IMG/VR virus record: IMGVR_UViG_3300000208_000002
Location: 1-52,420 of that record
Source of the DNA: a virus
Lineage: Duplodnaviria > Caudoviricetes
Reading direction: 5' to 3' (one strand)
Length of the DNA: 52,420 nt
Of the stretch, positions 4,464 to 17,117 are shown in pieces; position 1 is the stretch's first letter, and each line of letters opens with the position of its first letter. The notes under the pieces were generated by a model. The model was not told the origin of the DNA. It saw only the letters and a list, made by a program, of their open reading frames with translations, and did no database searches. The translations under genes and the position numbers were made by a program.

Positions 4464-4868
4464 TTACACATGCTTGCGGTAGAGGGCAAGGATCTGATCG
4501 AAGAACTCTTTGTCGCATTCGGCTTCGATCAGATCCACTAAGTCATAAGGATCAGGGCCAATAAATGATTCAAAATACATGACTAGAACTGGTTCCTTAA
4601 AATCAAGTCTCCTATTGCCATACCGGAGCTGCACATGAATCGTGCAACCCGGAATGACAAAGGAGTCAAGATATTTGACTTTGTTTTTAACAGGCTTCAT
4701 CGTGACATCCACACGAATGCCACAAATAAAAAAGTCAGTACCTTCTTTTTGGTCCTGACTTTCATTGGCTCTAGTATATTCTTTGCCATACAAACATTTC
4801 AGCAAATACCCCATACCATCCTCGAATGCTTTTCCAATAGGGGATTTGCCATACAAATCAATTCTCAT
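4464..4868 (-). CDS. Hypothetical protein, possibly PD-(D/E)xK-like fold
   Basis: 134 aa, translationally coupled to the upstream ORF. GTDF...VDVTMK loosely resembles a PD-(D/E)xK motif. Confidence 0.55.
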   Translation of the reverse strand: MRIDLYGKSPIGKAFEDGMGYLLKCLYGKEYTRANESQDQKEGTDFFICGIRVDVTMKPVKNKVKYLDSFVIPGCTIHVQLRYGNRRLDFKEPVLVMYFESFIGPDPYDLVDLIEAECDKEFFDQILALYRKHV

Positions 4869-5041
4869 TATTTCACCCCCGTAAATTCAATGAGAAGTTG
4901 TTCTTGTCCATTTTTAACAGCATAGATGCGATAAATTTTACGGCCACGATCATCGTAGCCGCAGAATATAGAATATACATATCCCTTTTCCTCGCAATAA
5001 CCCAAATACTCGCCATTAGTAACAATGTGTTTAACAGACAT
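4868..5041 (-). CDS. Small hypothetical protein (~57 aa)
   Basis: RBS AAGGAGGTG precedes ATG at 5041 (MSVKHIVT...). Confidence 0.65.
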   Translation of the reverse strand: MSVKHIVTNGEYLGYCEEKGYVYSIFCGYDDRGRKIYRIYAVKNGQEQLLIEFTGVK

Positions 5042-5247
5042 CGTGTTCACCTCCTTGTTGTGATATGACCCCACCCCGCCCCCTACACCAACCTTGCGTG
5101 CCTCCAACCATAACGGTGCAGGGGAAGTGAGAAAAGCCGCACTGAAAGATTGGATCAACCAAGCTATCGATCCTAATCCATCAATCACCTCCTAAAAAGC
5201 AGAATAAAAATGTAACGCATTACATTGGCATAAAAGACTTTCATCTT

Positions 5248-7582: not shown

Positions 7583-7774
7583 AATAATCAGAAAGAACCA
7601 ACGGCCTCCTTCCATCAGGTGTTTGTGATGGTCTCCTAAATTGTGCTTCGAGTTCAGAGAATTTACAACTATGGTGTCTTTATCCATAGTTTCACCACCT
7701 CCTTAACACAACAACCATTTATTGATATGAGGTTAAATAATCTGGCTCCTCTCCATTTAACCTCATATCAACAT

Positions 7775-7849
7775 TCCGCAGTAGCTCAGTGGTAGAGCGC
7801 TCGGCTGTTAACCGAGTGGTCGTAGGTTCGAATCCTACCTGCGGAGCCA
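7775..7849 (+). tRNA. tRNA-Asn(GTT)
   Basis: Full cloverleaf, anticodon GTT, encoded CCA. Confidence 0.95.
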
Positions 7850-7854
7850 TTTAC

Positions 7855-7945
7855 GGAGAACTGTTCGAGTGGTCGAAGGAGCACGATTGGAAATCGTGTG
7901 GGCGTGAATAGTGTCTCAAGGGTTCGAATCCCTTGCTCTCCGCCA
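7855..7945 (+). tRNA. tRNA-Ser(GGA)
   Basis: Long variable arm, anticodon GGA, CCA; one A-C mismatch in the acceptor stem. Confidence 0.85.
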
Positions 7946-7959
7946 TGATCCATCAGCAT

Positions 7960-8034
7960 GGCCCGTTGGTCAAGTGGTTGAGACACTTCCCTTTCACGGC
8001 GGTAACACGGGTTCGAGTCCCGTCTTCCGCTCCA
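7960..8034 (+). pseudogene. Chimeric tRNA: Glu(TTC) 5' part fused to a Gly(GCC)-type 3' end
   Basis: 5' GGCCCGT cannot pair with 3' CTTCCGC. The 3' end CCCGTCTTCCGCTCCA is as recalled for Bacillus tRNA-Gly(GCC). Mismatch in the anticodon stem. Confidence 0.8.
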
Positions 8035-8043
8035 ATATGCCAT

Positions 8044-8129
8044 GCCGGGGTGGCGGAATTGGCAGACGCACAGGACTTAAAATCCTGCGGTAGGTGACTA
8101 CCGTGCCGGTTCGAGTCCGGCCCTCGGCA
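8044..8129 (+). tRNA. tRNA-Leu(TAA)
   Basis: Cloverleaf with long variable arm, anticodon TAA; CCA not encoded. Confidence 0.92.
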
Positions 8130-8137
8130 CTTTATAT

Positions 8138-8214
8138 GCGCCCGTAGCTCAATTGGATAGAGCATCTGATTACGGATCAGAAGGTTAGGGATTCGAATTC
8201 TCTTGGGTGCGCCA
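8138..8214 (+). tRNA. tRNA-Arg(ACG)
   Basis: Cloverleaf, anticodon ACG, CCA. T-stem closing pair is A-T instead of the usual G53-C61. Confidence 0.85.
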
Positions 8215-8218
8215 TGAT

Positions 8219-8295
8219 CGGGAAGTAGCTCAGCTTGGCAGAGCACATGATTTGGGATCATGGGGTCGCAGGTTCAAATCCTGTCTTCCCGACCA
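8219..8295 (+). tRNA. tRNA-Pro(TGG)
   Basis: Cloverleaf, anticodon TGG, CCA. Confidence 0.95.
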
Positions 8296-8303
8296 CTTTC
8301 AAG

Positions 8304-8380
8304 GGACCTTTAGCTCAGCTGGTTAGAGCAGACGGCTCATAACCGTCCGGTCGTAGGTTCGAGTCCTACAAGGTCCACCA
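8304..8380 (+). tRNA. tRNA-Ile2(CAT) (lysidine type; Met-like anticodon)
   Basis: Cloverleaf, anticodon CAT. GGACCTT acceptor typical of Bacillus Ile2; CCA. Confidence 0.88.
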
Positions 8381-8400
8381 TTATTATTGTTGCTTTTTTT

Positions 8401-8491
8401 GGAGGAGTACCCAAGTGGTTGAAGGGGGCGGTCTTGAAAACCGAGAGGCGTCGAAAGGCGTGCGGGGGTTCGAATCCCTCCTCCTCCGCCA
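8401..8491 (+). tRNA. tRNA-Ser(TGA)
   Basis: Cloverleaf, long variable arm, anticodon TGA, CCA. Confidence 0.93.
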
Positions 8492-8519
8492 TATACAGTT
8501 TCATATCGCTTTATATTAT

Positions 8520-8595
8520 GCCGGCTTAGCTCAATTGGCAGAGCAACTGATTTGTAATCAGTAGGTTGCGGGTTCAAGTCCTGCAGCCGGCACCA
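8520..8595 (+). tRNA. tRNA-Thr(TGT)
   Basis: Cloverleaf, anticodon TGT, CCA. Confidence 0.95.
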
Positions 8596-8601
8596 GAACG
8601 A

Positions 8602-8675
8602 GGCGACTATGGCGAAGTGGTTAGCGCACCAGATTGTGGCTCTGTCATGCATGAGTTCGATTCCCACTAGTCATC
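8602..8675 (+). pseudogene. Degenerate tRNA-His(GTG)
   Basis: His-like D arm and anticodon loop, but mismatches in the acceptor, anticodon and T stems; no CCA. Confidence 0.75.
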
Positions 8676-8697
8676 CTTTTCATTATATTCTATATTT

Positions 8698-8771
8698 GCG
8701 GGTGTAGTTTAGTGGTAAAACCTCAGCCTTCCAAGTTGATGTCGTAGGTTCGAGTCTTGCCTGCGGAGCCA
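8698..8771 (+). pseudogene. Chimeric tRNA: Gly(TCC) 5' part fused to an Asn-type 3' end
   Basis: 5' GCGGGTG cannot pair with 3' CTGCGGA. The 3' part GTCGTAGGTTCGA...CCTGCGGAGCCA matches the tRNA-Asn at 7775-7849. Confidence 0.8.
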
Positions 8772-11581: not shown

Positions 11582-11920
11582 ATGATGAGAAGTAATTTGG
11601 CCATCAATGGATGGAATGCCATTAAACAAACATATAAGGAAATCGGCCGAGATTTAAAAAGAACTTGGTATAATGAAGTGCCATTGAGTTATGCGATTCG
11701 AACAGAAAAAGCACGAAGAGCATTTGATCAGGTAGGAGATATTCAAGCATTTAAGCAACAAGGCGGATTCGGTCCAGGCACATTAGATTGGAAACGGATC
11801 GGAATTATTGGTGGAACTGCTTATGTTGGAATTGATGGGGCATATCGTGCATTGAGTGGTGGATCGATGTATCGGAATAAAACTGGAGAAAGCGATATTG
11901 TAGGAATTCCGCTTATTTAG
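11582..11920 (+). CDS. Small Gly-rich hydrophobic protein, putative virion protein
   Basis: 112 aa, RBS, Gly-rich hydrophobic segment. Confidence 0.6.
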   Translation: MMRSNLAINGWNAIKQTYKEIGRDLKRTWYNEVPLSYAIRTEKARRAFDQVGDIQAFKQQGGFGPGTLDWKRIGIIGGTAYVGIDGAYRALSGGSMYRNKTGESDIVGIPLI

Positions 11921-11934
11921 AGATAGGGGGATTT

Positions 11935-12303
11935 ATGATGTATAAAGTAAGACGTTTTTTAAAAGGGTTAAAAAAGGAGATGGATTGGAACGACACATGG
12001 TTTAGATATACCGGTCGTCGATCCATTGATAATTTGTGGACAGGTTATGAAGCTGGCGGCAAAACCAAAGCGGTTGCAGGTGGAGCAGCTGCTATTGGTT
12101 TATTGAGTTATGGTGGATATCAGATTTACCAAACTCCACTGAATATATTGGGAGAAATAGCGAAAGAACAAGATGTGGAATCATTGCCAGGCACTAGAGG
12201 AGATATGCAAGGATACACTGCATATGGTGGAAATGTCGGCCCAGGAATAGAAGTTAGTGGTGATTTAGTATTTGCTTTGCATAAATTACGACATGGCGGG
12301 TGA
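11935..12303 (+). CDS. Small Gly/Ala-rich hydrophobic protein, putative virion protein
   Basis: 122 aa, AVAGGAAAIGLL segment, RBS. Confidence 0.6.
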   Translation: MMYKVRRFLKGLKKEMDWNDTWFRYTGRRSIDNLWTGYEAGGKTKAVAGGAAAIGLLSYGGYQIYQTPLNILGEIAKEQDVESLPGTRGDMQGYTAYGGNVGPGIEVSGDLVFALHKLRHGG

Positions 12304-12734
12304 TGAGCATGGCAACAGCAAAAGAACCAACGAATAGTAGGGGATTGATTCAACGATTAAATGGACCGTTAGGATATGCCGCAGTTGGATTAGATTCTTA
12401 TATGCGTATTAAAGAAGGAGAATCTGTTCCAGTTGCAGTTGGCAAAGCATTATTTACTAATGCATTATGGGCAATGGTTCCAGGCGGAATGGTAGGAGCA
12501 GTTGGATTAAGTCTTGGGTTTACAGCCGCTCAAGCAGTTCCTATGATCGCAAATTGGATTGATCAAAAACGAGCTGCCTTAAATCAGCAACGATCACAAT
12601 TTGGCGGTAATTTTCAATCTACACAAGCACAGCAAATGATGATGAATCATGGAATTAATCAAATTGTTAGTGCTCGTTCTCAATTAGCGGCAAGTATGGC
12701 TAATCATGCAAGAAATGCACAGCGAGTGTATTAA
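12300..12734 (+). CDS. Small membrane-like protein with Gln-rich C-terminus
   Basis: 144 aa, overlaps the upstream stop codon. Confidence 0.6.
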   Translation: MMSMATAKEPTNSRGLIQRLNGPLGYAAVGLDSYMRIKEGESVPVAVGKALFTNALWAMVPGGMVGAVGLSLGFTAAQAVPMIANWIDQKRAALNQQRSQFGGNFQSTQAQQMMMNHGINQIVSARSQLAASMANHARNAQRVY

Positions 12735-12739
12735 GGCAG

Positions 12740-13363
12740 GTGAAATACATGGCTTATTTATATGCGAATGAACCATATCAGCGTGTTGATGAAGGGATGT
12801 TAAATGGCGCATTATGGGGAGCTGGCATTGGAATTGCGGCTGGAGGAGCAACAATGGGGATTTCATATGCAATGATGAAAGGGATCCCCCAAAGAGCAGA
12901 AAGAATGAGAAACGAACTGGAAGAACGACAACAAGCAATTCGACAAAAAGTTTCTGACACAAATCAATATTTTAATCAACAAGTTGATGATCTTGTAAAT
13001 CGAATGAACTCATTGCAAAATCCTATTTCTACTCCTAATGATGGAAGATTAACACGTTTGAAAAATGCAATTATTACCCAAATGAATGAGAATCAAAGAA
13101 GACATTTGCAAAATCAATTAAATTCCATTGATAAACGTCATGAAAGAGTAATTAATAGATTGAACAAAAAATTTGATCAGCTTCAAACAAAGTATGGCAA
13201 GTATACAGATCCTAGTTATGTAGAAACAGCCATGAAAAATTCGTTCTATGCAAAGCATTTAAGCAGTTGGAAAGGAAAAGCAGGATTATTAGGTGGAGCT
13301 GCATTATTAGGAGTCGCCGCTGGCGCATTGATTGATCATTATTATGATGGAAATAGGGAGTGA
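12740..13363 (+). CDS. Glycine-zipper protein with central coiled coil (paralog A)
   Basis: NEPYQRVDEG...GA motif at the N-terminus and WKGK...GALID at the C-terminus, shared with the next ORF. Confidence 0.7.
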   Translation: MKYMAYLYANEPYQRVDEGMLNGALWGAGIGIAAGGATMGISYAMMKGIPQRAERMRNELEERQQAIRQKVSDTNQYFNQQVDDLVNRMNSLQNPISTPNDGRLTRLKNAIITQMNENQRRHLQNQLNSIDKRHERVINRLNKKFDQLQTKYGKYTDPSYVETAMKNSFYAKHLSSWKGKAGLLGGAALLGVAAGALIDHYYDGNRE

Positions 13364-13369
13364 AGTAAT

Positions 13370-13765
13370 ATGTTACAATCCAATGAGCCTTATTTTCGAG
13401 TAGATGATGGCATAGGTAATGGCATTATATATGGAGCATTAGCAGGAGCGGCAGGTATGGGGATTACACAAGGTATCATGAATGCGTCAGCAAAAAGAGA
13501 ATACAATAAAGCTCGTGATGCTTTTGTTGAGTCAAGACTGAAACCGAGATTAGCTTTACCGGCTCCTCCAGGAAGTATTAATGGAACCCCTACTACAGCA
13601 TTAGTGTCAGTGCATCAACCAGAAACTCCGAAAGTAGAATTAGGCCCAGCACAAAGAAGATACGCAAAAATGTTTAGAGGGTGGAAAGGAAAAGGATTAG
13701 CTTATGGTGGAGCAATTCTTGCTGGAGGATTGTTAGGGGCAGCAATTGATGCGGCAAACGATTAA
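13370..13765 (+). CDS. Glycine-zipper protein (paralog B)
   Basis: NEPYFRVDDG... and WKGK...GAAID termini. Confidence 0.7.
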   Translation: MLQSNEPYFRVDDGIGNGIIYGALAGAAGMGITQGIMNASAKREYNKARDAFVESRLKPRLALPAPPGSINGTPTTALVSVHQPETPKVELGPAQRRYAKMFRGWKGKGLAYGGAILAGGLLGAAIDAAND

Positions 13766-13790
13766 TGTTCAGTGATATGAAGGAGGTGAT

Positions 13791-16700
13791 TTGGTGAATC
13801 TTGCTAGTGTACGAGAAGATGACTTAGAACAATTAGAATTAGAGATACGATCCGATCCGGTAAAATGGGCGTATTGGAAGTTAAAAGATCCAAAAGGTCG
13901 GCCATGGAAAGCACGTTGGTATCAAAAGATGATTATTGACGATATTATGAAAGGTGAGCGGCGTTTAGCCATTCGCATGGGTAGACGTGTTGGAAAAACA
14001 GAGACGCTTTGTGTGTTTTGTCTATGGTATGCGTTTCATCACAAAAATGCTCGTTTATTAGTTACTGCACCTTATGAGCACCAAGTTCGATTAATTTTTA
14101 TGAGATTGAATGAGTTTATTGATGATTGTGATGAATTAACAGAAGGATTGAAATCTCGAACGAAAAACCCGTTTATTATTGAATTTCATAATGGCTCTCG
14201 AATTATGGGATTCACTGCTGGAGCTAATGATGGACAAGCTGGAGCGTCAGTACGGGGGCAAAGAGCAGATTGGATTTTTTTGGATAACATTGTTATTTCA
14301 TCAAGATAAAAAAGGAAGTGGTCAATATGTTTGGTTTTCTAAGAAGATTGCGTTCAAATCAAGCATTTAATCCAATTCATAATGCAACTAGTTATGTACA
14401 GAAACAATATGAAGCATTACATCAATTACAACAACATAACCAGCGAATGACAAGGGCTATGAAAAATATTCCAAATGTTGATGATGATATTTCTAAGATG
14501 CTTCAACAAAATCAAGATTTATTAAATCGATGGCCTTGATGAAATAACAATTGTCCCTCACATGAGTAATCATGTGTAGCAAATCGGGTGAATTCAGGGA
14601 AGGCTAAGGACATTTTGTCTATGCTAACCCTGAGCCAAGCCCACATGTCATGTCGTGAGACACGCATGTTGGGAAGGTGCAAAGACTATCCCCTTGTGGG
14701 AGTAGGGATGCAAGCGATTGGCATCTCGAAGCGCCCGACATCCTCCAGAAATGGAGAGATGATGAGATAGTCTCGTCCTCCTCGAAAGGGGAGAGTGGCG
14801 TAGCGAGCCACGCAAGGCAACGGAATGTGATTACATGTCCCGTGCTGGCATTGACGCTATTACTGCTATTGCATTAGAAGATCCGAAACGTATTGGTATT
14901 TGGTGTTCTTCCACTCCAACTGGTAAACGTGACTTTTTCTATGAAATTTGCACGAATCCTGATACTGGTTATAAAGCATATCACTTCCCATCTATGGTGA
15001 ATCCGGATTGGGATGAAAAAATGGAAGCAGAGCTTCGTGCAACAATGACAGAACAAGGTTTTATTCATGAAGTATTAGCAGAATTCGGTGAAGAAACAAT
15101 CGGTGTGTTTAATAAGCAAGCAGTTGAACGAGCAAAATCTCAATACTTATATACTTATCGTGAATTAAACGCATATGAAATAGAGATGTATAAGAAACAA
15201 GGTTATGATATGGATAAGATTGTGTATTTTGGCCCATATACACGAAAAAATCCGGCACCACCAGCTATACGTATAATAGGAGTGGATTGGGACAAATTCA
15301 GCAACGCAACTCAAATTGTTATCACAGAATTTGATGAGTTATTGAAAAAGTTTAGAGTGGCCAACCGTGTAGAAATTCCTCGTAGTGAATTCACGTATGA
15401 TAATGCAGTCAGAAAGATTATCGAGTTAAATGAGATTTATGATCCTAAGTTTATTTATGTTGATGCTGGGCATGGTAAGCAAATTGCCGTCTAATGTGGA
15501 AACACATTAGATTATGAGGGCGGAATTAAGCGGGGAAGCCTAAGTCCTTATTGGATATGGCTACCCGAACCGAAGGCTGAGCCTAAAAACTCAGTCAGGG
15601 GCAGAGCGTAGAATTGGTCGAGCATTATTAGATTTGCTTTTTAAAGGCAAAGGAAAGGATGATATAGAAATGAAATTATCTACTATAGACAAAAAATCAT
15701 TTTTAATCGGAATGGTTTTAGGTGATGGATATTTAAAGCGTGGCAAGAATGCTGTACATTACAATATTGTGTGTACTCATAACCCTGAGCAGTACGATTA
15801 TCTCATATGGAAAATGGAAATTCTGAAACAAAATCTTACTAAGAACTATTGGGTGGGCACCAAAAAATCAAGATTGGCAGGAAAGGCTATCCACAAAGGA
15901 AACGTAGGAAAGGAGTATTTAATGTATTATGCGACTTTAGGAACACATCCTTTATGTACGCAAATTTACAAAGAAATGTATATTGATGGAACTAAAAAAG
16001 TTACAAAATCTATATTAAATCAATTAACACCTATTGGATTGGCTGTTTGGTACATGGATGATGGAAGCCTTTCTTATAGAAAAAACCCCAATGGTTCAAT
16101 CAAAAGTAGAAATGTCACTCTTCATATTCAAGGTTTTGACTATGAAAGTCAATTAAATATTGTAGAATATTTTAAAGAAACTTGGGGTATTGAAACCAGA
16201 TTGCATAAAACAAGAGATAAATATAAACTTTGGATGAATACCCCTAATTCAATTAAGTTTTTAAAGATAGTTGCACCTTATGTAAATGAAGTTCCGTGTA
16301 TGAGATATAAAATTGATTTAAAATACCAAAAGAAATCCGTAGAACTGCTCGACCAAAAGGTGAACCTCTCCAATTAGAGAGAATATAACCCTTCCAAGAG
16401 GCCGCCCCACCCAAACCGTAAAGGTCGGTGGGTGAAAATGTACGCCGAGCTGCAGGGAAACCTGTAGAAGCATGGATAAAAAGCCATGCGATAACACAAC
16501 TGGAATATCAAATTGAAACGTTGCACAAATATGGACTTGAGCATCCAGAGAGTGGATTGAAACATAAAGTCAAACGTATTCAATTCTCTCAAAGCATTGA
16601 AATTCGTGATCCAGCAACTCGTGAAATTGATAAAAAAGATGCGAAAAACTTTATGGTCAATCAAACATCAATTTTATTAGAACGTGGACAAATTGTATTG

Positions 16701-17117
16701 TCTCCATTTGATGATATGATCTGGAAACAAATGATGAATTATCAAGTGATTCGTGTAACACAAAATGGAAGACCGAAATATACATCAGAAAACGAACATG
16801 CTTTAGATGCTTTTATGTTAACGATTTTAGGGTTTACTCTTGAATTTCCGAATATCACAAAAATCTTAGAAGAAGTTCATATTGCAAGAAAAGTGATTCC
16901 ATTTAAGCCGAAAACAGAAGAAAATCTAAAGGAAAAAGTGTTTGGTGGAGAACGTGACATTTATAGACCTGTAAGACCTCAAAGAGAACGTGAGCCAAGA
17001 GACAATCCACGTTGGCATTGGGTGAAAGTTCCGCTAGGATATAGTAAAAGAAAAAATAATGCATGGGGAAGAAGAGGAAGCACAAAAATGTCGTCTTTCT
17101 CTAGATCAAAATTTTAA
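13791..17117 (+). CDS. terL: Terminase large subunit, spliced: join(13791..14285,14823..15476,16503..17117), ~587 aa
   Basis: Walker A MGRRVGKT. Splicing restores Walker B WIFLD|ECD and nuclease DAGHG|EYQ. Also motif III SSTP, GVDW and C-terminal EHALDA. Confidence 0.92.
14286..14822 (+). mobile_element. Group I intron 1 in terL (537 nt)
   Basis: 5' exon ends in U (GGAU pairs with GUCC at 14553-56, G-U at the splice site); terminal G. P2 with GUAA tetraloop, P7 GACTA/TAGTC, P10-like ACATT/AATGT. Exons join in frame. Confidence 0.9.
14327..14539 (+). CDS. Intron-borne non-nuclease ORF (70 aa from ATG; 73 aa from GTG 14318), Q/N-rich helical
   Basis: RBS AAAGGAAG. The ORF fills the whole P1 loop. 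No LAGLIDADG, HNH or GIY-YIG motifs. Confidence 0.65.
   Translation: MFGFLRRLRSNQAFNPIHNATSYVQKQYEALHQLQQHNQRMTRAMKNIPNVDDDISKMLQQNQDLLNRWP
15477..16502 (+). mobile_element. Group I intron 2 in terL (1026 nt) with homing endonuclease
   Basis: Exon ends GGU, P1 pairs with GCCGT. P2 CTAATGTG-GAAA-CACATTAG, P3 GGGCGG/CCGCCC, P7 GCGTA/TACGC, terminal G. In-frame exon join. Confidence 0.88.
15670..16377 (+). CDS. LAGLIDADG homing endonuclease (intron 2)
   Basis: LIGMVLGDG and LAVWYMDDG motifs; RBS AAAGGA before ATG 15670. Confidence 0.9.
   Translation: MKLSTIDKKSFLIGMVLGDGYLKRGKNAVHYNIVCTHNPEQYDYLIWKMEILKQNLTKNYWVGTKKSRLAGKAIHKGNVGKEYLMYYATLGTHPLCTQIYKEMYIDGTKKVTKSILNQLTPIGLAVWYMDDGSLSYRKNPNGSIKSRNVTLHIQGFDYESQLNIVEYFKETWGIETRLHKTRDKYKLWMNTPNSIKFLKIVAPYVNEVPCMRYKIDLKYQKKSVELLDQKVNLSN

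What the first reader, a model, noticed from the sequence alone, without database searches (positions are those of the whole stretch)
14286..14556. Group I intron carrying a non-nuclease protein gene inside its P1 splice-site helix
Seen: intron 1 splits the TerL Walker B (D|E). A perfect 17-bp inverted repeat (14289-14305 / 14535-14551) extends P1 and encloses a ~230-nt loop. The loop is filled by a 70-73 aa ORF with its own RBS, and the ORF's stop codon lies inside the 3' arm of the stem. The guide sequence GUCC comes only after the ORF. The peptide is Q/N-rich and helical, has no endonuclease motif, and weakly resembles the middle of ORF 12740-13363 (AMKNIPN vs AMMKGIPQ). Known: phage group I intron ORFs are nearly always homing endonucleases. 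Inference: either a domesticated intron hosting a phage cargo gene, or a switch in which ribosomes translating the cargo melt P1 and delay terminase splicing.
Basis: partly seen in the sequence, partly recalled or inferred. Interest (0 to 1): 0.8.

Follow-up and report, generated by a model that had tools for sequence, protein, structure and literature searches.

The report
Small phage gene inside terminase intron
A self-splicing intron that interrupts a phage DNA-packaging gene carries, in the hairpin that defines its own splice site, a small conserved non-nuclease gene instead of the usual homing nuclease.

Summary
terL is split at its Walker B Asp|Glu by a complete group I intron, 14286-14822 (Rfam 95.8 bits). 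Its P1 helix (GGAUA/UGUCC) is extended by a perfect 17-bp stem that closes a 229-nt loop. The loop holds a Shine-Dalgarno site and a 70-codon ORF whose stop lies in the 3' arm.

The ORF is a real gene and not a nuclease relic. It belongs to a family of 62-71 aa basic, helical proteins with no Pfam, PHROG, NCBIfam or PDB match.

- In a second lineage (42% aa identity) the gene starts 29 nt after the same splice site.
- In a related phage (L012) it stands free just upstream of terL.
- Five complete related genomes lack it, so it is an accessory gene.

Introns at the same site in other phages have P1 loops of 8 nt (4 loci) or about 90 nt (1 locus). A sister intron carries a LAGLIDADG nuclease gene in its P1 loop. 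The position is therefore normal for this lineage; the cargo is what is unusual.

Ribosomes ending on either arm must melt P1, so translation and splicing compete physically. A regulatory switch is untested. The claimed likeness to ORF 12740-13363 fails (E 7.9), but a short N-terminal motif is shared with three upstream genes.

This is a new variant of a known kind.

The parts
13791..14285 (+). terL exon 1: N-terminal ATPase part with Walker A and Walker B up to the Asp
   Evidence: ORF list. Pfam Terminase_6N, E 1.4e-5. Alignment with the uninterrupted Moorella phage TerL.
14286..14822 (+). Group I intron 1 (537 nt), inserted between the Walker B Asp and Glu codons
   Evidence: Rfam RF00028, 95.8 bits. 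Junctions fixed by homology. Introns at the same site in L045, L063, L065, L066 and L083 share the guide sequence and the core.
14282..14286 (+). 5' strand of P1 (GGAU of the exon plus the first intron A); the splice site follows U14285
   Evidence: MFE fold. The same GGAU|AA...UUGUCCC is seen in the same-site introns.
14289..14305 (+). 5' arm of the 17-bp P1 extension; it is read as NIVISS by ribosomes that run on from exon 1
   Evidence: The tail NIVISSR is identical in the relatives P0020 and P0046.
14307..14309 (+). TAA that ends the exon 1 reading frame, 2 nt after the 5' arm and 17 nt before the cargo ATG
   Evidence: ORF 13791..14309 and the sequence.
14311..14321 (+). Shine-Dalgarno-like site AAAGGAAGTGG of the cargo ORF
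   Evidence: Sequence. No promoter-like site in 13600-15000.
14327..14539 (+). Cargo gene: 70-aa basic helical protein (pI 10.1), member of a new family of small proteins
   Evidence: Homologues. AF2 model with three helices. No family match.
14535..14551 (+). 3' arm of the P1 extension; it contains the cargo stop codon TGA 14537-14539
14552..14556 (+). Internal guide sequence UGUCC, which pairs with GGAUA
   Evidence: TTGTCCC is conserved in the same-site introns.
14559..14576 (+). P2 hairpin (CACAUGA GUAA UCAUGUG)
   Evidence: Fold and alignment.
14577..14822 (+). Ribozyme core P3-P9 with an insert between the 5' strand of P7 and the 3' strand of P3; P7 = 14683-14690 / 14766-14773; terminal G14822
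   Evidence: Rfam alignment, repeat I20, alignment A6.
14823..15476 (+). terL exon 2
15477..16502 (+). Intron 2 (1026 nt) with the LAGLIDADG homing endonuclease ORF 15634-16377. It is absent from near relatives that keep intron 1
   Evidence: Pfam LAGLIDADG_2, E 1e-31. Junction GHG|EYQ. Contigs of runs X1-X3 join 15466 to 16503.
16503..17117 (+). terL exon 3

Best explanation
Intron 1 is an ordinary, complete group I ribozyme of the IA-like phage type. It must splice, because terL is otherwise broken inside its ATPase site. The loop of its P1 hairpin has been expanded: it is 8 nt in four introns at the same site in other phages, and here it holds a 229-nt insert with a phage accessory gene for a 70-aa basic, helical, non-nuclease protein.

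The perfect 17-bp stem acts as a clamp. It closes the insert and brings the 5' splice site (GGAU|A) back next to the guide sequence (UGUCC) 270 nt away, so that P1 can form.

The gene has no promoter-like site of its own. It is read from the terL transcript, either the unspliced precursor or the excised intron, through its own Shine-Dalgarno site. Ribosomes that finish exon 1 at TAA 14307, 17 nt upstream, probably also re-initiate on it.

A ribosome ending exon 1 sits on the 5' arm, and a ribosome ending the cargo ORF sits on the 3' arm. Translation of either frame therefore excludes P1 formation for that moment. The intron has to splice in the gaps between ribosomes, as reviews describe for I-TevI in the T4 td intron.

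Shown here: the intron, the stem, the ORF, the protein family, the same gene at the same intron position in a second lineage, the free-standing copy elsewhere, and its absence from complete relatives.

Inferred: the clamp role, re-initiation, and competition between translation and splicing. Also inferred is that the gene rides in the intron, so that precise intron loss would delete it and the two are inherited together. The biochemical function is unknown. My best guess is a late, packaging- or morphogenesis-linked nucleic-acid-binding accessory protein.
For: Intron:
- Rfam 95.8 bits.
- Removing 14286-14822 restores LD|ECDYM, colinear with an uninterrupted TerL.
- Introns at exactly this site occur in 5 of 81 TerL loci examined: L045, L063, L065, L066 and L083. 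They share TTGTCCC, P2, P3, P4 and P7 with the window.

P1 and the clamp:
- MFE and centroid folds.
- Perfect 17-bp repeat, rare in the window.
- The P1 loops of the same-site introns are 8 nt (L063, L065, L066, L083) or about 90 nt and structured (L045). The loop is thus a variable site, and the window's insert is derived.

The gene is real:
- 5 close sequences at 75-99% identity with an open frame.
- 8 more cluster representatives of 62-71 aa, colinear end to end, E 3e-7 to 8e-4 in 1.84 billion proteins.
- The L012 copy scores 54 bits, against a maximum of 10.2 bits in 1000 shuffles.

Same position in a second lineage:
- The exon 1 ORF P0030 (...WILMD-EKFLKGVLYICLIFFENYDQISQ) encodes, in another frame, the first 14 codons of the small protein P0008. 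This was the only compatible placement among all those tried for 25 x 13 protein pairs.
- That puts its ATG 29 nt after the Asp codon.
- Both proteins list the same longest contig, 9184.
- P0016 and the D|-truncated P0023 likewise share contig 54577.

Free-standing copy: L012 3035-3244 lies between a 'SNEPY' gene and terL. That terL has no intron at D|E.

Not a nuclease:
- No Pfam, PHROG or NCBIfam hit.
- PDB by sequence: best E 0.2, a designed helical bundle.
- Foldseek: nothing at E <= 0.001.
- No Cys and no conserved acidic or His residue. The invariant residues are L8, N11, N15 and R68.

A sister intron keeps a nuclease gene in the same loop: L011 has a LAGLIDADG ORF at 4489-5190, the guide GTCCC near 5173, and a core 73.5% identical over 102 nt to the window's.

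Expression: there is no promoter-like or terminator-like site in 13600-15000.

Literature:
- Ribosome entry from intron ORFs impairs splicing, and in-frame stops follow 5' splice sites (PMC3073962 and PMC3984707, passages read).
- Intron 1 is kept in relatives that lack intron 2.
Against: - No RNA data. No RNA run was listed, so neither splicing nor translation is shown.
- No DNA could be obtained for any other in-intron copy. Covariation in the clamp and dN/dS therefore could not be measured, and the stem's conservation rests only on identical translated tails in two near relatives.
- In the 75%-identical relatives the ORF ends two codons earlier, so the stop-in-arm detail is not conserved.
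- In the P0008 lineage only 29 nt separate the splice site from the ATG, which leaves no room for a 17-nt arm followed by a separate ribosome-binding site as in the window.
- The hairpin predicted over the Shine-Dalgarno site and AUG is weak (z -1.66; 14 of 200 shuffles fold as well).
- The gene is absent from 5 complete related genomes, so it is dispensable for this phage group.
- BLASTP alone does not align the window and L012 proteins; only the profile does.
Confidence: 0.72

Rival explanations
1. Regulatory switch. Translation of the cargo ORF, or of exon 1 into the 5' arm, is used by the phage to delay or meter terL splicing, and so to time terminase production. The 17-bp stem and the stop codon in its 3' arm would be the sensor.
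For: - A ribosome at TAA 14307-14309 or at TGA 14537-14539 covers an arm of the stem, so P1 cannot form while it is there.
- Precedent: de-repressed I-TevI translation causes a td splicing defect (PMC3073962, passage read).
- The arrangement recurs in a second lineage.
Against: - Any ORF in a ribozyme loop has this side effect, so no selection for it need be assumed.
- The stop-in-arm is lost in the 75% relatives.
- Close relatives have an uninterrupted terL (L006-L009 and L080) and need no such timer.
- There are no expression data.
Confidence: 0.2
2. Intron-associated helper. The small basic protein binds the terL pre-mRNA or intron DNA and helps the introns, either as a splicing chaperone like a maturase or as a factor in intron inheritance. 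That would explain why it travels with intron-bearing terL genes.
For: - All 13 members are basic, pI 10.1-11.7, and the model of the window's protein is helical.
- Every context recovered has an intron-split terL: the window, the X1-type contig, L012 (two other introns), P0008/P0030 and P0016/P0023.
- Relatives with an intron-free terL (L006-L009, L080) lack it.
Against: - Of 26 TerL loci with insertions, 25 show no family member within 4 kb. These include all five other D|E introns.
- Complete genomes G008 and G010 have a terL intron but lack the gene.
- Known group I maturases derive from LAGLIDADG proteins (recalled, not from a call).
- No RNA-binding fold was detected.
Confidence: 0.12
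3. Relic. The ORF is the decayed remnant of a homing endonuclease gene, or a chance open frame in a structured RNA loop, and makes no functional protein.
For: - Phage intron ORFs are nearly always nucleases. [quoted passage not shown]
- The sister intron in L011 has a LAGLIDADG gene in this loop.
- The insert is AT-rich, 29% GC.
Against: - The family of 62-71 aa proteins is colinear end to end at 35-44% identity, with conserved termini.
- L012 has a free-standing copy with its own ribosome-binding site.
- There is no similarity to any nuclease family.
- The loop is filled exactly by the ribosome-binding site plus the ORF.
Confidence: 0.05

Closest known systems
T4 td intron with I-TevI (phage group IA intron carrying an ORF in a peripheral loop)
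   Same: A self-splicing phage intron in an essential gene. An in-frame stop lies just after the 5' splice site. The loop ORF has its own ribosome-binding site and its 3' end overlaps a helix needed for splicing. Translation of the ORF competes with ribozyme folding (PMC3073962).
   Different: The td ORF sits in P6 and encodes a GIY-YIG homing endonuclease. Here the ORF is in the P1 loop, the product is a 70-aa non-nuclease, and the helix overlapped is a P1 extension that adjoins the splice-site pairing.
LAGLIDADG homing endonuclease genes in P1 loops: the sister terL intron in L011, and a fungal mitochondrial cox3 intron (PMC4964425)
   Same: The same loop is used as the insertion site. The L011 ribozyme core is homologous to the window's, 73.5% over 102 nt.
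   Different: Their cargo is a homing endonuclease that can mobilise the intron. The window's cargo cannot cut DNA by any recognisable motif.
Fungal mitochondrial group I introns that host non-nuclease genes (rps3, aminotransferases, N-acetyltransferases)
   Same: A group I intron serves as the home of a gene useful to the host genome rather than of a homing nuclease (PMC8393795, passage read).
   Different: These are organellar introns (the best-known case, recalled rather than read, lies in the large rRNA gene). No coupling with translation of an upstream exon is involved, and the protein family is unrelated.
terL introns of Bacillus Bastillevirinae phages (PMC11878797)
   Same: IA-like group I introns split terminase large subunit genes, sometimes two or three per gene (5 of 52 terL genes).
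   Different: All loop-encoded proteins reported there are nucleases or are named as such. No small non-nuclease cargo is described in the passages I read. I did not read the supplementary tables.

Membership tests
Group I intron (Rfam RF00028) | Conserved catalytic core P3-P9 scoring above the curated threshold | tested here: met
   95.8 bits against a gathering score of 50, model positions 1-253 of 253.
Group I intron (Rfam RF00028) | P1 formed by the 5' exon end and an internal guide sequence, with a U-G wobble at the splice site | tested here: met
   GGAUA 14282-14286 pairs with UGUCC 14552-14556, including U14285-G14553. The same pairing is seen in the same-site introns.
Group I intron (Rfam RF00028) | The intron ends in G, and removing it restores a colinear host reading frame | tested here: met
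   G14822. Joining 14285 to 14823 gives LD|ECDYM, which matches the uninterrupted TerL.
Group I intron (Rfam RF00028) | Self-splicing activity | not testable with these tools
   No RNA run was listed. It needs RT-PCR or in vitro splicing.
Subgroup IA (phage type) | Extra P7.1/P7.2 helices between P7 and P3' | tested here: inconclusive
   A 41-nt insert at that place appears in the Rfam alignment, and it is shared with the L011, L063 and L083 introns. No subgroup-specific model was run.
Homing endonuclease (LAGLIDADG, GIY-YIG, HNH, His-Cys box, PD-(D/E)xK) | Match to a nuclease domain model or its catalytic motif | tested here: not met
   No such hit for the 70-aa ORF in Pfam, PHROGs, NCBIfam, PDB sequences or Foldseek. 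It has no Cys and no conserved acidic or His residue.
Mobile (homing) group I intron | The intron encodes its own endonuclease | tested here: not met
   Intron 1 holds only the small ORF. Intron 2, 650 nt downstream, has a LAGLIDADG gene but is absent from relatives that keep intron 1.
Small-protein family of the cargo ORF (unnamed) | 62-71 aa; N-terminal M-F-x-x-(L/F)-x-K-L-R-S-N-Q-(A/P)-I-N; central L-x-Q-L-Q; C-terminal N-x-x-L-L-x-R | tested here: met
   Alignment A4 of 13 sequences. Profile hits.

The most novel reading that the evidence does not exclude
The small basic protein and the Walker-B terL intron form a stable two-part unit, and the protein acts on the intron or on terminase itself. 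It could be a new kind of splicing or inheritance helper, or a metering device for terminase. The intron would then persist without a homing nuclease because losing it deletes a useful gene. That would be the first 'domesticated' cargo-bearing group I intron described in a phage.
Probability: 0.2. Interest if true: 0.8.

Novelty: new variant of a known kind. Interest (0 to 1): 0.6.

Why it matters
Phage group I introns are usually seen as homes for homing nucleases, and introns without one are expected to decay. Here an intron without a nuclease sits in an essential packaging gene and holds a conserved accessory gene at the same spot in at least two lineages. Their cargo proteins have diverged to about 40% identity.

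That offers a simple reason for an intron to persist: losing it loses the gene. It also places a translated ORF inside the helix that defines the splice site. This gives a clean natural system for testing how ribosomes and ribozyme folding compete.

It also defines a new family of small basic phage proteins linked to terL.

Tried and rejected
Searches for DNA of other family members:
- The scans of viral, metagenome and genome contigs with the small protein or its alignments returned only the window's own contig.
- One search returned a false positive, L005, which is the N-terminus of an FtsY-like gene.

Other searches that found nothing:
- megablast of the terL region against phage records: no match.
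- tblastn of the ORF against phage records: only chance hits at E >= 6. P0017: none.
- Pattern scan with a conserved core motif: 120 loci fetched, no further family member, and one terL fragment, L203.
- The search of earlier findings: nothing.
- ESM Atlas: best score 0.75, below the level that means anything.

Sequencing runs:
- No RNA holder was listed among the runs.
- Read laying printed only 40 of 226 differing positions, none inside the intron. Variants in the stem were therefore not seen.

Weak or set-aside results:
- The hairpin over the Shine-Dalgarno site and AUG is not better than shuffles.
- BLASTP between the window and L012 proteins gives no alignment, whereas the profile does.
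- The long proteins P0006, P0012, P0014 and P0015 were set aside as probable Q-rich or coiled-coil composition matches. I did not examine them.
- The L019 hit (15.7 bits) is a 13-residue motif match in a different protein.
- No complex-prediction job was sent, because the report claims no binding.

Literature: the searches for non-nuclease cargo in phage group I introns listed nothing relevant by title or abstract. I did not open those papers.
Full report
**What is in the sequence**

The terminase large subunit gene of this phage fragment is in three pieces. The fragment is an IMG/VR virus record of 52,420 bases, estimated 27% complete.

Alignment of the three reading frames with the uninterrupted TerL of Moorella phage MTATph1 fixes both junctions to the codon (48% identity):
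- ...RGQRADWIFLD|ECDYMS...
- ...YVDAGHG|EYQIETLH...

The layout is therefore:
- Exon 1 ends at T14285.
- Intron 1 is 14286-14822 (537 nt, last base G).
- Exon 2 is 14823-15476.
- Intron 2 is 15477-16502.
- Exon 3 runs to 17117.

Rfam's group I model matches 14510-14794 over its full length at 95.8 bits, against a threshold of 50. It is the only intron match in the window at gathering threshold. Intron 2 is not recognised by Rfam, but it carries a clear LAGLIDADG_2 gene (E 1e-31).

**The P1 helix and its extension**

The perfect 17-bp inverted repeat 14289-14305 / 14535-14551 is real. Only two perfect inverted repeats of 17 nt or more within 600 nt exist in the window; the other is a hairpin in front of the tRNA array. 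The 17-mer has no other close copy.

Both the minimum-free-energy and the centroid folds of 14276-14835 give the same picture (z -6.2 against 100 shuffles):
- GGAUA (14282-14286) pairs with UGUCC (14552-14556), with U14285-G14553 at the splice site.
- A14287 and C14288 bulge out.
- The 17 base pairs follow directly.

The guide sequence therefore comes only after the 229-nt loop. Rfam's printed alignment puts 'P1' and 'P2' on a local hairpin at 14514-14550. This is an artefact, because the model cannot span the insert.

Downstream lie a P2 hairpin (14559-14576), P3 to P9 with an extra insert between the 5' strand of P7 and the 3' strand of P3, an 8-bp P7 (14683-14690 / 14766-14773), and the terminal G.

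**The loop ORF**

- The exon 1 frame runs into the intron, across the whole 5' arm (NIVISSR), and stops at TAA 14307-14309.
- Seventeen bases later, after AAAGGAAGTGG (14311-14321), comes ATG 14327. This opens a 70-codon frame whose TGA (14537-14539) lies inside the 3' arm.
- No promoter-like or terminator-like site is found in 13600-15000. The ORF is therefore most simply read from the terL transcript.
- A hairpin predicted over the ribosome-binding site and AUG is no better than shuffles (z -1.66; 14 of 200 fold as well).

**Is the ORF a gene?**

Yes. The word-indexed search of 5.8 billion proteins found two clusters. Their members give five distinct sequences at 75-99% identity, all open. 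One lies on a 1.77-Mb NCBI contig and one on a 209-kb JGI contig.

A profile search of 1.84 billion cluster representatives found 13 proteins at E <= 0.001:
- One was P0002, already known.
- Eight were new small proteins of 62-71 aa, matched end to end at E 3e-7 to 8e-4 and 35-44% identical to the window's protein (alignment A4).
- Four were long proteins (P0006, P0012, P0014, P0015). I set these aside as probable composition matches without examining them.

Features of the family:
- The N-terminus M-F-x-x-(L/F)-x-K-L-R-S-N-Q-(A/P)-I-N.
- A central L-x-Q-L-Q.
- The C-terminus N-x-x-L-L-x-R.
- All 13 members are basic (pI 10.1-11.7) and lack Cys.
- AlphaFold2 gives three helices at mean pLDDT 70.7.

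Nothing names the family:
- Pfam, PHROGs and NCBIfam: no hit.
- PDB sequences: best E 0.2, a designed helical bundle.
- Foldseek against the PDB: no match at E <= 0.001.
- ESM Atlas: 0.75, uninformative.

No nuclease motif is present or conserved.

**Where the family sits in other phages**

I fetched 80 TerL loci from IMG/VR. I searched the six-frame ORFs of 84 sources with the family profile: the window and 83 loci, 7,951 ORFs in all. Three ORFs matched:
- The window's own ORF.
- L012 3035-3244 (E 1e-14).
- A 13-residue motif match in L019, discussed under the N-terminal signature below.

The L012 protein scores 54 bits against a maximum of 10.2 bits in 1000 shuffles of itself. BLASTP alone does not align it to the window's protein.

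In L012 the gene stands free, with its own ribosome-binding site. It lies between a 115-aa 'SNEPY' gene and terL. That 115-aa gene is the positional counterpart of window 13370-13765: one search aligns only the N-termini, and the C-termini agree by eye. In the window, the corresponding gap between the two genes is only 25-28 nt.

The L012 terL has no intron at D|E. It has one at Walker A and one at DWD|K.

Searches of ten related virus records found the family only in the record that contains L012. Five of these records are rated 100% complete: G001, G003, G004, G008 and G010. The gene is therefore accessory.

**A second in-intron lineage, shown from proteins alone**

Searching with the exon 1 ORF returned 25 proteins, all of which I examined. 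Their breaks fall as follows:
- 9 stop within 13 codons or fewer after the Walker B Asp. Their tails are NIVISSR, KTVA, KQMSLI, KNVAYC, KQIA, KLTY..., YKRH..., KHAS and, in P0030, a longer one.
- P0038 also breaks after this Asp, with a long tail.
- 7 break after RGQRAD.
- 5 break after DE-x-D.
- 4 run on through the site.

The P0030 tail (EKFLKGVLYICLIFFENYDQISQ) encodes, in a different frame, the first 14 codons of the small protein P0008. This was the single compatible placement among all out-of-frame placements of 25 exon 1 ORFs against 13 small proteins. It puts the P0008 ATG 29 nt after the Asp codon. Both proteins list the same longest contig, 9184.

P0008 is 42% identical to the window's protein. 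P0030 is 73% identical to the window's exon 1. The gene therefore occupies the same place in the same intron in a well-diverged lineage.

P0016 and the D|-truncated P0023 also share a contig length, 54577. This is suggestive only.

In the near relative carried by runs X1 and X2 (about 95% nucleotide identity), one contig covers 13745-15466 without a break, so intron 1 and its ORF are kept. Its exon 1 ORF, P0046, has the identical NIVISSR tail.

**How unusual is the position?**

Not very, for this intron lineage. Of 81 TerL loci with both flanks of the site, 5 have an intron at exactly D|E: L045, L063, L065, L066 and L083. Four more have one 9 nt downstream (DE-x-D|Y), and L061 breaks after RGQRAD.

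The five same-site introns align with the window's from TTGTCCC through P2, P3, P4 and P7 to the 3' end, with compensatory changes in the last hairpin. Their P1 loops differ:
- 8 nt (GGAT|AAGAAATT-GTCCC and variants) in L063, L065, L066 and L083.
- About 90 nt, structured and without an ORF, in L045.

The window's 266-nt insert is thus a derived expansion of a variable loop.

A sister intron sits at another terL site (DWD|K) in L010 and L011. Its core is 73.5% identical over 102 nt. It carries a LAGLIDADG gene from 14 nt after the splice site to beyond the guide GTCCC, which places the gene in the P1 loop.

A nuclease gene in a P1 loop is also described for a fungal mitochondrial intron (PMC4964425, passages read).

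What is unusual is the cargo. [quoted passage not shown] Its supplementary tables were not read.

Non-nuclease genes such as rps3 and certain transferases are known in organellar introns (PMC8393795, passage read). My two literature searches for such cargo in phage group I introns listed nothing relevant by title or abstract.

**How it most likely works**

Shown: a complete ribozyme whose removal restores terL; a clamp-like extension of P1; a conserved small gene in the loop.

Inferred:
1. The 17-bp stem brings the splice site and the guide sequence together across the insert.
2. The gene is translated from the precursor or from the excised intron through its own ribosome-binding site. It is probably also translated by ribosomes that terminate 17 nt upstream.
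3. A ribosome at TAA 14307 sits on the 5' arm, and one at TGA 14537 sits on the 3' arm. Translation and P1 formation therefore exclude each other in time.

Reviews describe exactly this conflict for phage introns. In-frame stops just inside the intron keep ribosomes out, and de-repressed I-TevI translation causes a splicing defect (PMC3073962 and PMC3984707, passages read).

Whether the phage uses this conflict as a timer is open. Three observations speak against a finely tuned device:
- The 75% relatives end the ORF two codons earlier, outside the arm.
- The P0008 lineage has only 29 nt before the ATG.
- Close relatives manage with an intron-free terL (L006-L009 and L080).

**A link to the neighbouring genes**

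The motif [SA]N[QEL][AP][IYF] occurs in 4 of the 121 ORFs of 60 aa or more in the window. In each case it lies within the first 13 residues, and all four are in the block next to terL: 11582, 12740, 13370 and the intron ORF. In 300 shuffles the mean was 0.05 and the maximum 1. The motif was defined after seeing it, so this statistic is inflated.

L019's homologue of the 11582 gene (likeness of the C-termini judged by eye) carries KLRSNQAINSI, the family consensus. The cargo therefore shares an N-terminal signature with the glycine-rich gene cluster upstream of terL. What the signature means is unknown. It fits a late, morphogenesis-linked role better than an intron-specific one.

**Verdict**

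The 'cargo gene in an intron' reading is supported and extended: the gene belongs to a family, it recurs at the same intron position in a second lineage, and it stands free in another phage. The switch remains a plausible but untested side effect.

This is a new variant of a known kind, a group I intron with a loop ORF. It is interesting mainly as a nuclease-free phage intron that may persist because it houses a gene, and as a natural test bed for the conflict between ribosomes and ribozyme folding at P1.

Noticed in passing
window 15477-16502: Intron 2, with its LAGLIDADG gene, is polymorphic. Contigs of runs X1, X2 and X3 join 15466 directly to 16503. The 10 bases between are a synonymous recoding of the A-G-H-G codons, while intron 1 is kept. 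This is typical of a recent or ongoing homing site.
   Followed up: partly
L006-L085 (TerL loci) and P0020-P0050: terL of this phage clade is an intron hot spot with at least six insertion sites: Walker A (about aa 69), RGQRAD|, LD|E, DE-x-D|Y, DWD|K and GHG|E. Of the 82 loci with TerL hits, 26 carry insertions longer than 60 nt. Even a relative whose exon 1 is at least 90% identical (P0045) breaks after RGQRAD instead of at D|E.
   Followed up: partly
L063 3117-3590; L065 3458-3946; L083 3242-3616: The same-site D|E introns of more distant phages carry internal ORFs of 124-162 aa with no Pfam or PHROG match. These are possibly further non-nuclease or novel-nuclease intron cargo.
   Followed up: no
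window 11582-13765 and 14327-14539: Four ORFs next to or inside terL share an N-terminal motif [SA]N[QEL][AP][IYF]: RSNLAIN, ANEPYQRVD, SNEPYFRVD and RSNQAFN. Two of them (12740-13363 and 13370-13765) are glycine-rich proteins whose C-termini end in G-x-x-I-D. The same motif is seen in relatives (L012, L019). Its function is unknown.
   Followed up: partly
window 7722-8765: An array of 11 tRNA genes (7775-8765) is preceded by a perfect 17-bp hairpin (7722-7738 / 7755-7771).
   Followed up: no
L002 (Bacillus phage vB_BceM_WH1) 821-3745: terL is annotated as one 974-aa protein, about 390 aa longer than its relatives. The extra length lies before the match to residues 67-165, so an intein is likely. 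The relatives P0031 and P0044 carry the Pfam intein domain PF14890.
   Followed up: no
L008 3275-3505; L080 3263-3505: A 76-80 aa ORF directly upstream of the intron-free terL starts MF(L/M)KSNQ(S/A)LN. This recalls the N-terminus of the small-protein family, but the rest differs and the profile does not match it.
   Followed up: no
window 14510-14550: Rfam's alignment assigns P1 and P2 of the model to a local hairpin inside the cargo ORF. Automated intron boundaries taken from the covariance model would therefore be about 225 nt too short at the 5' end.
   Followed up: yes
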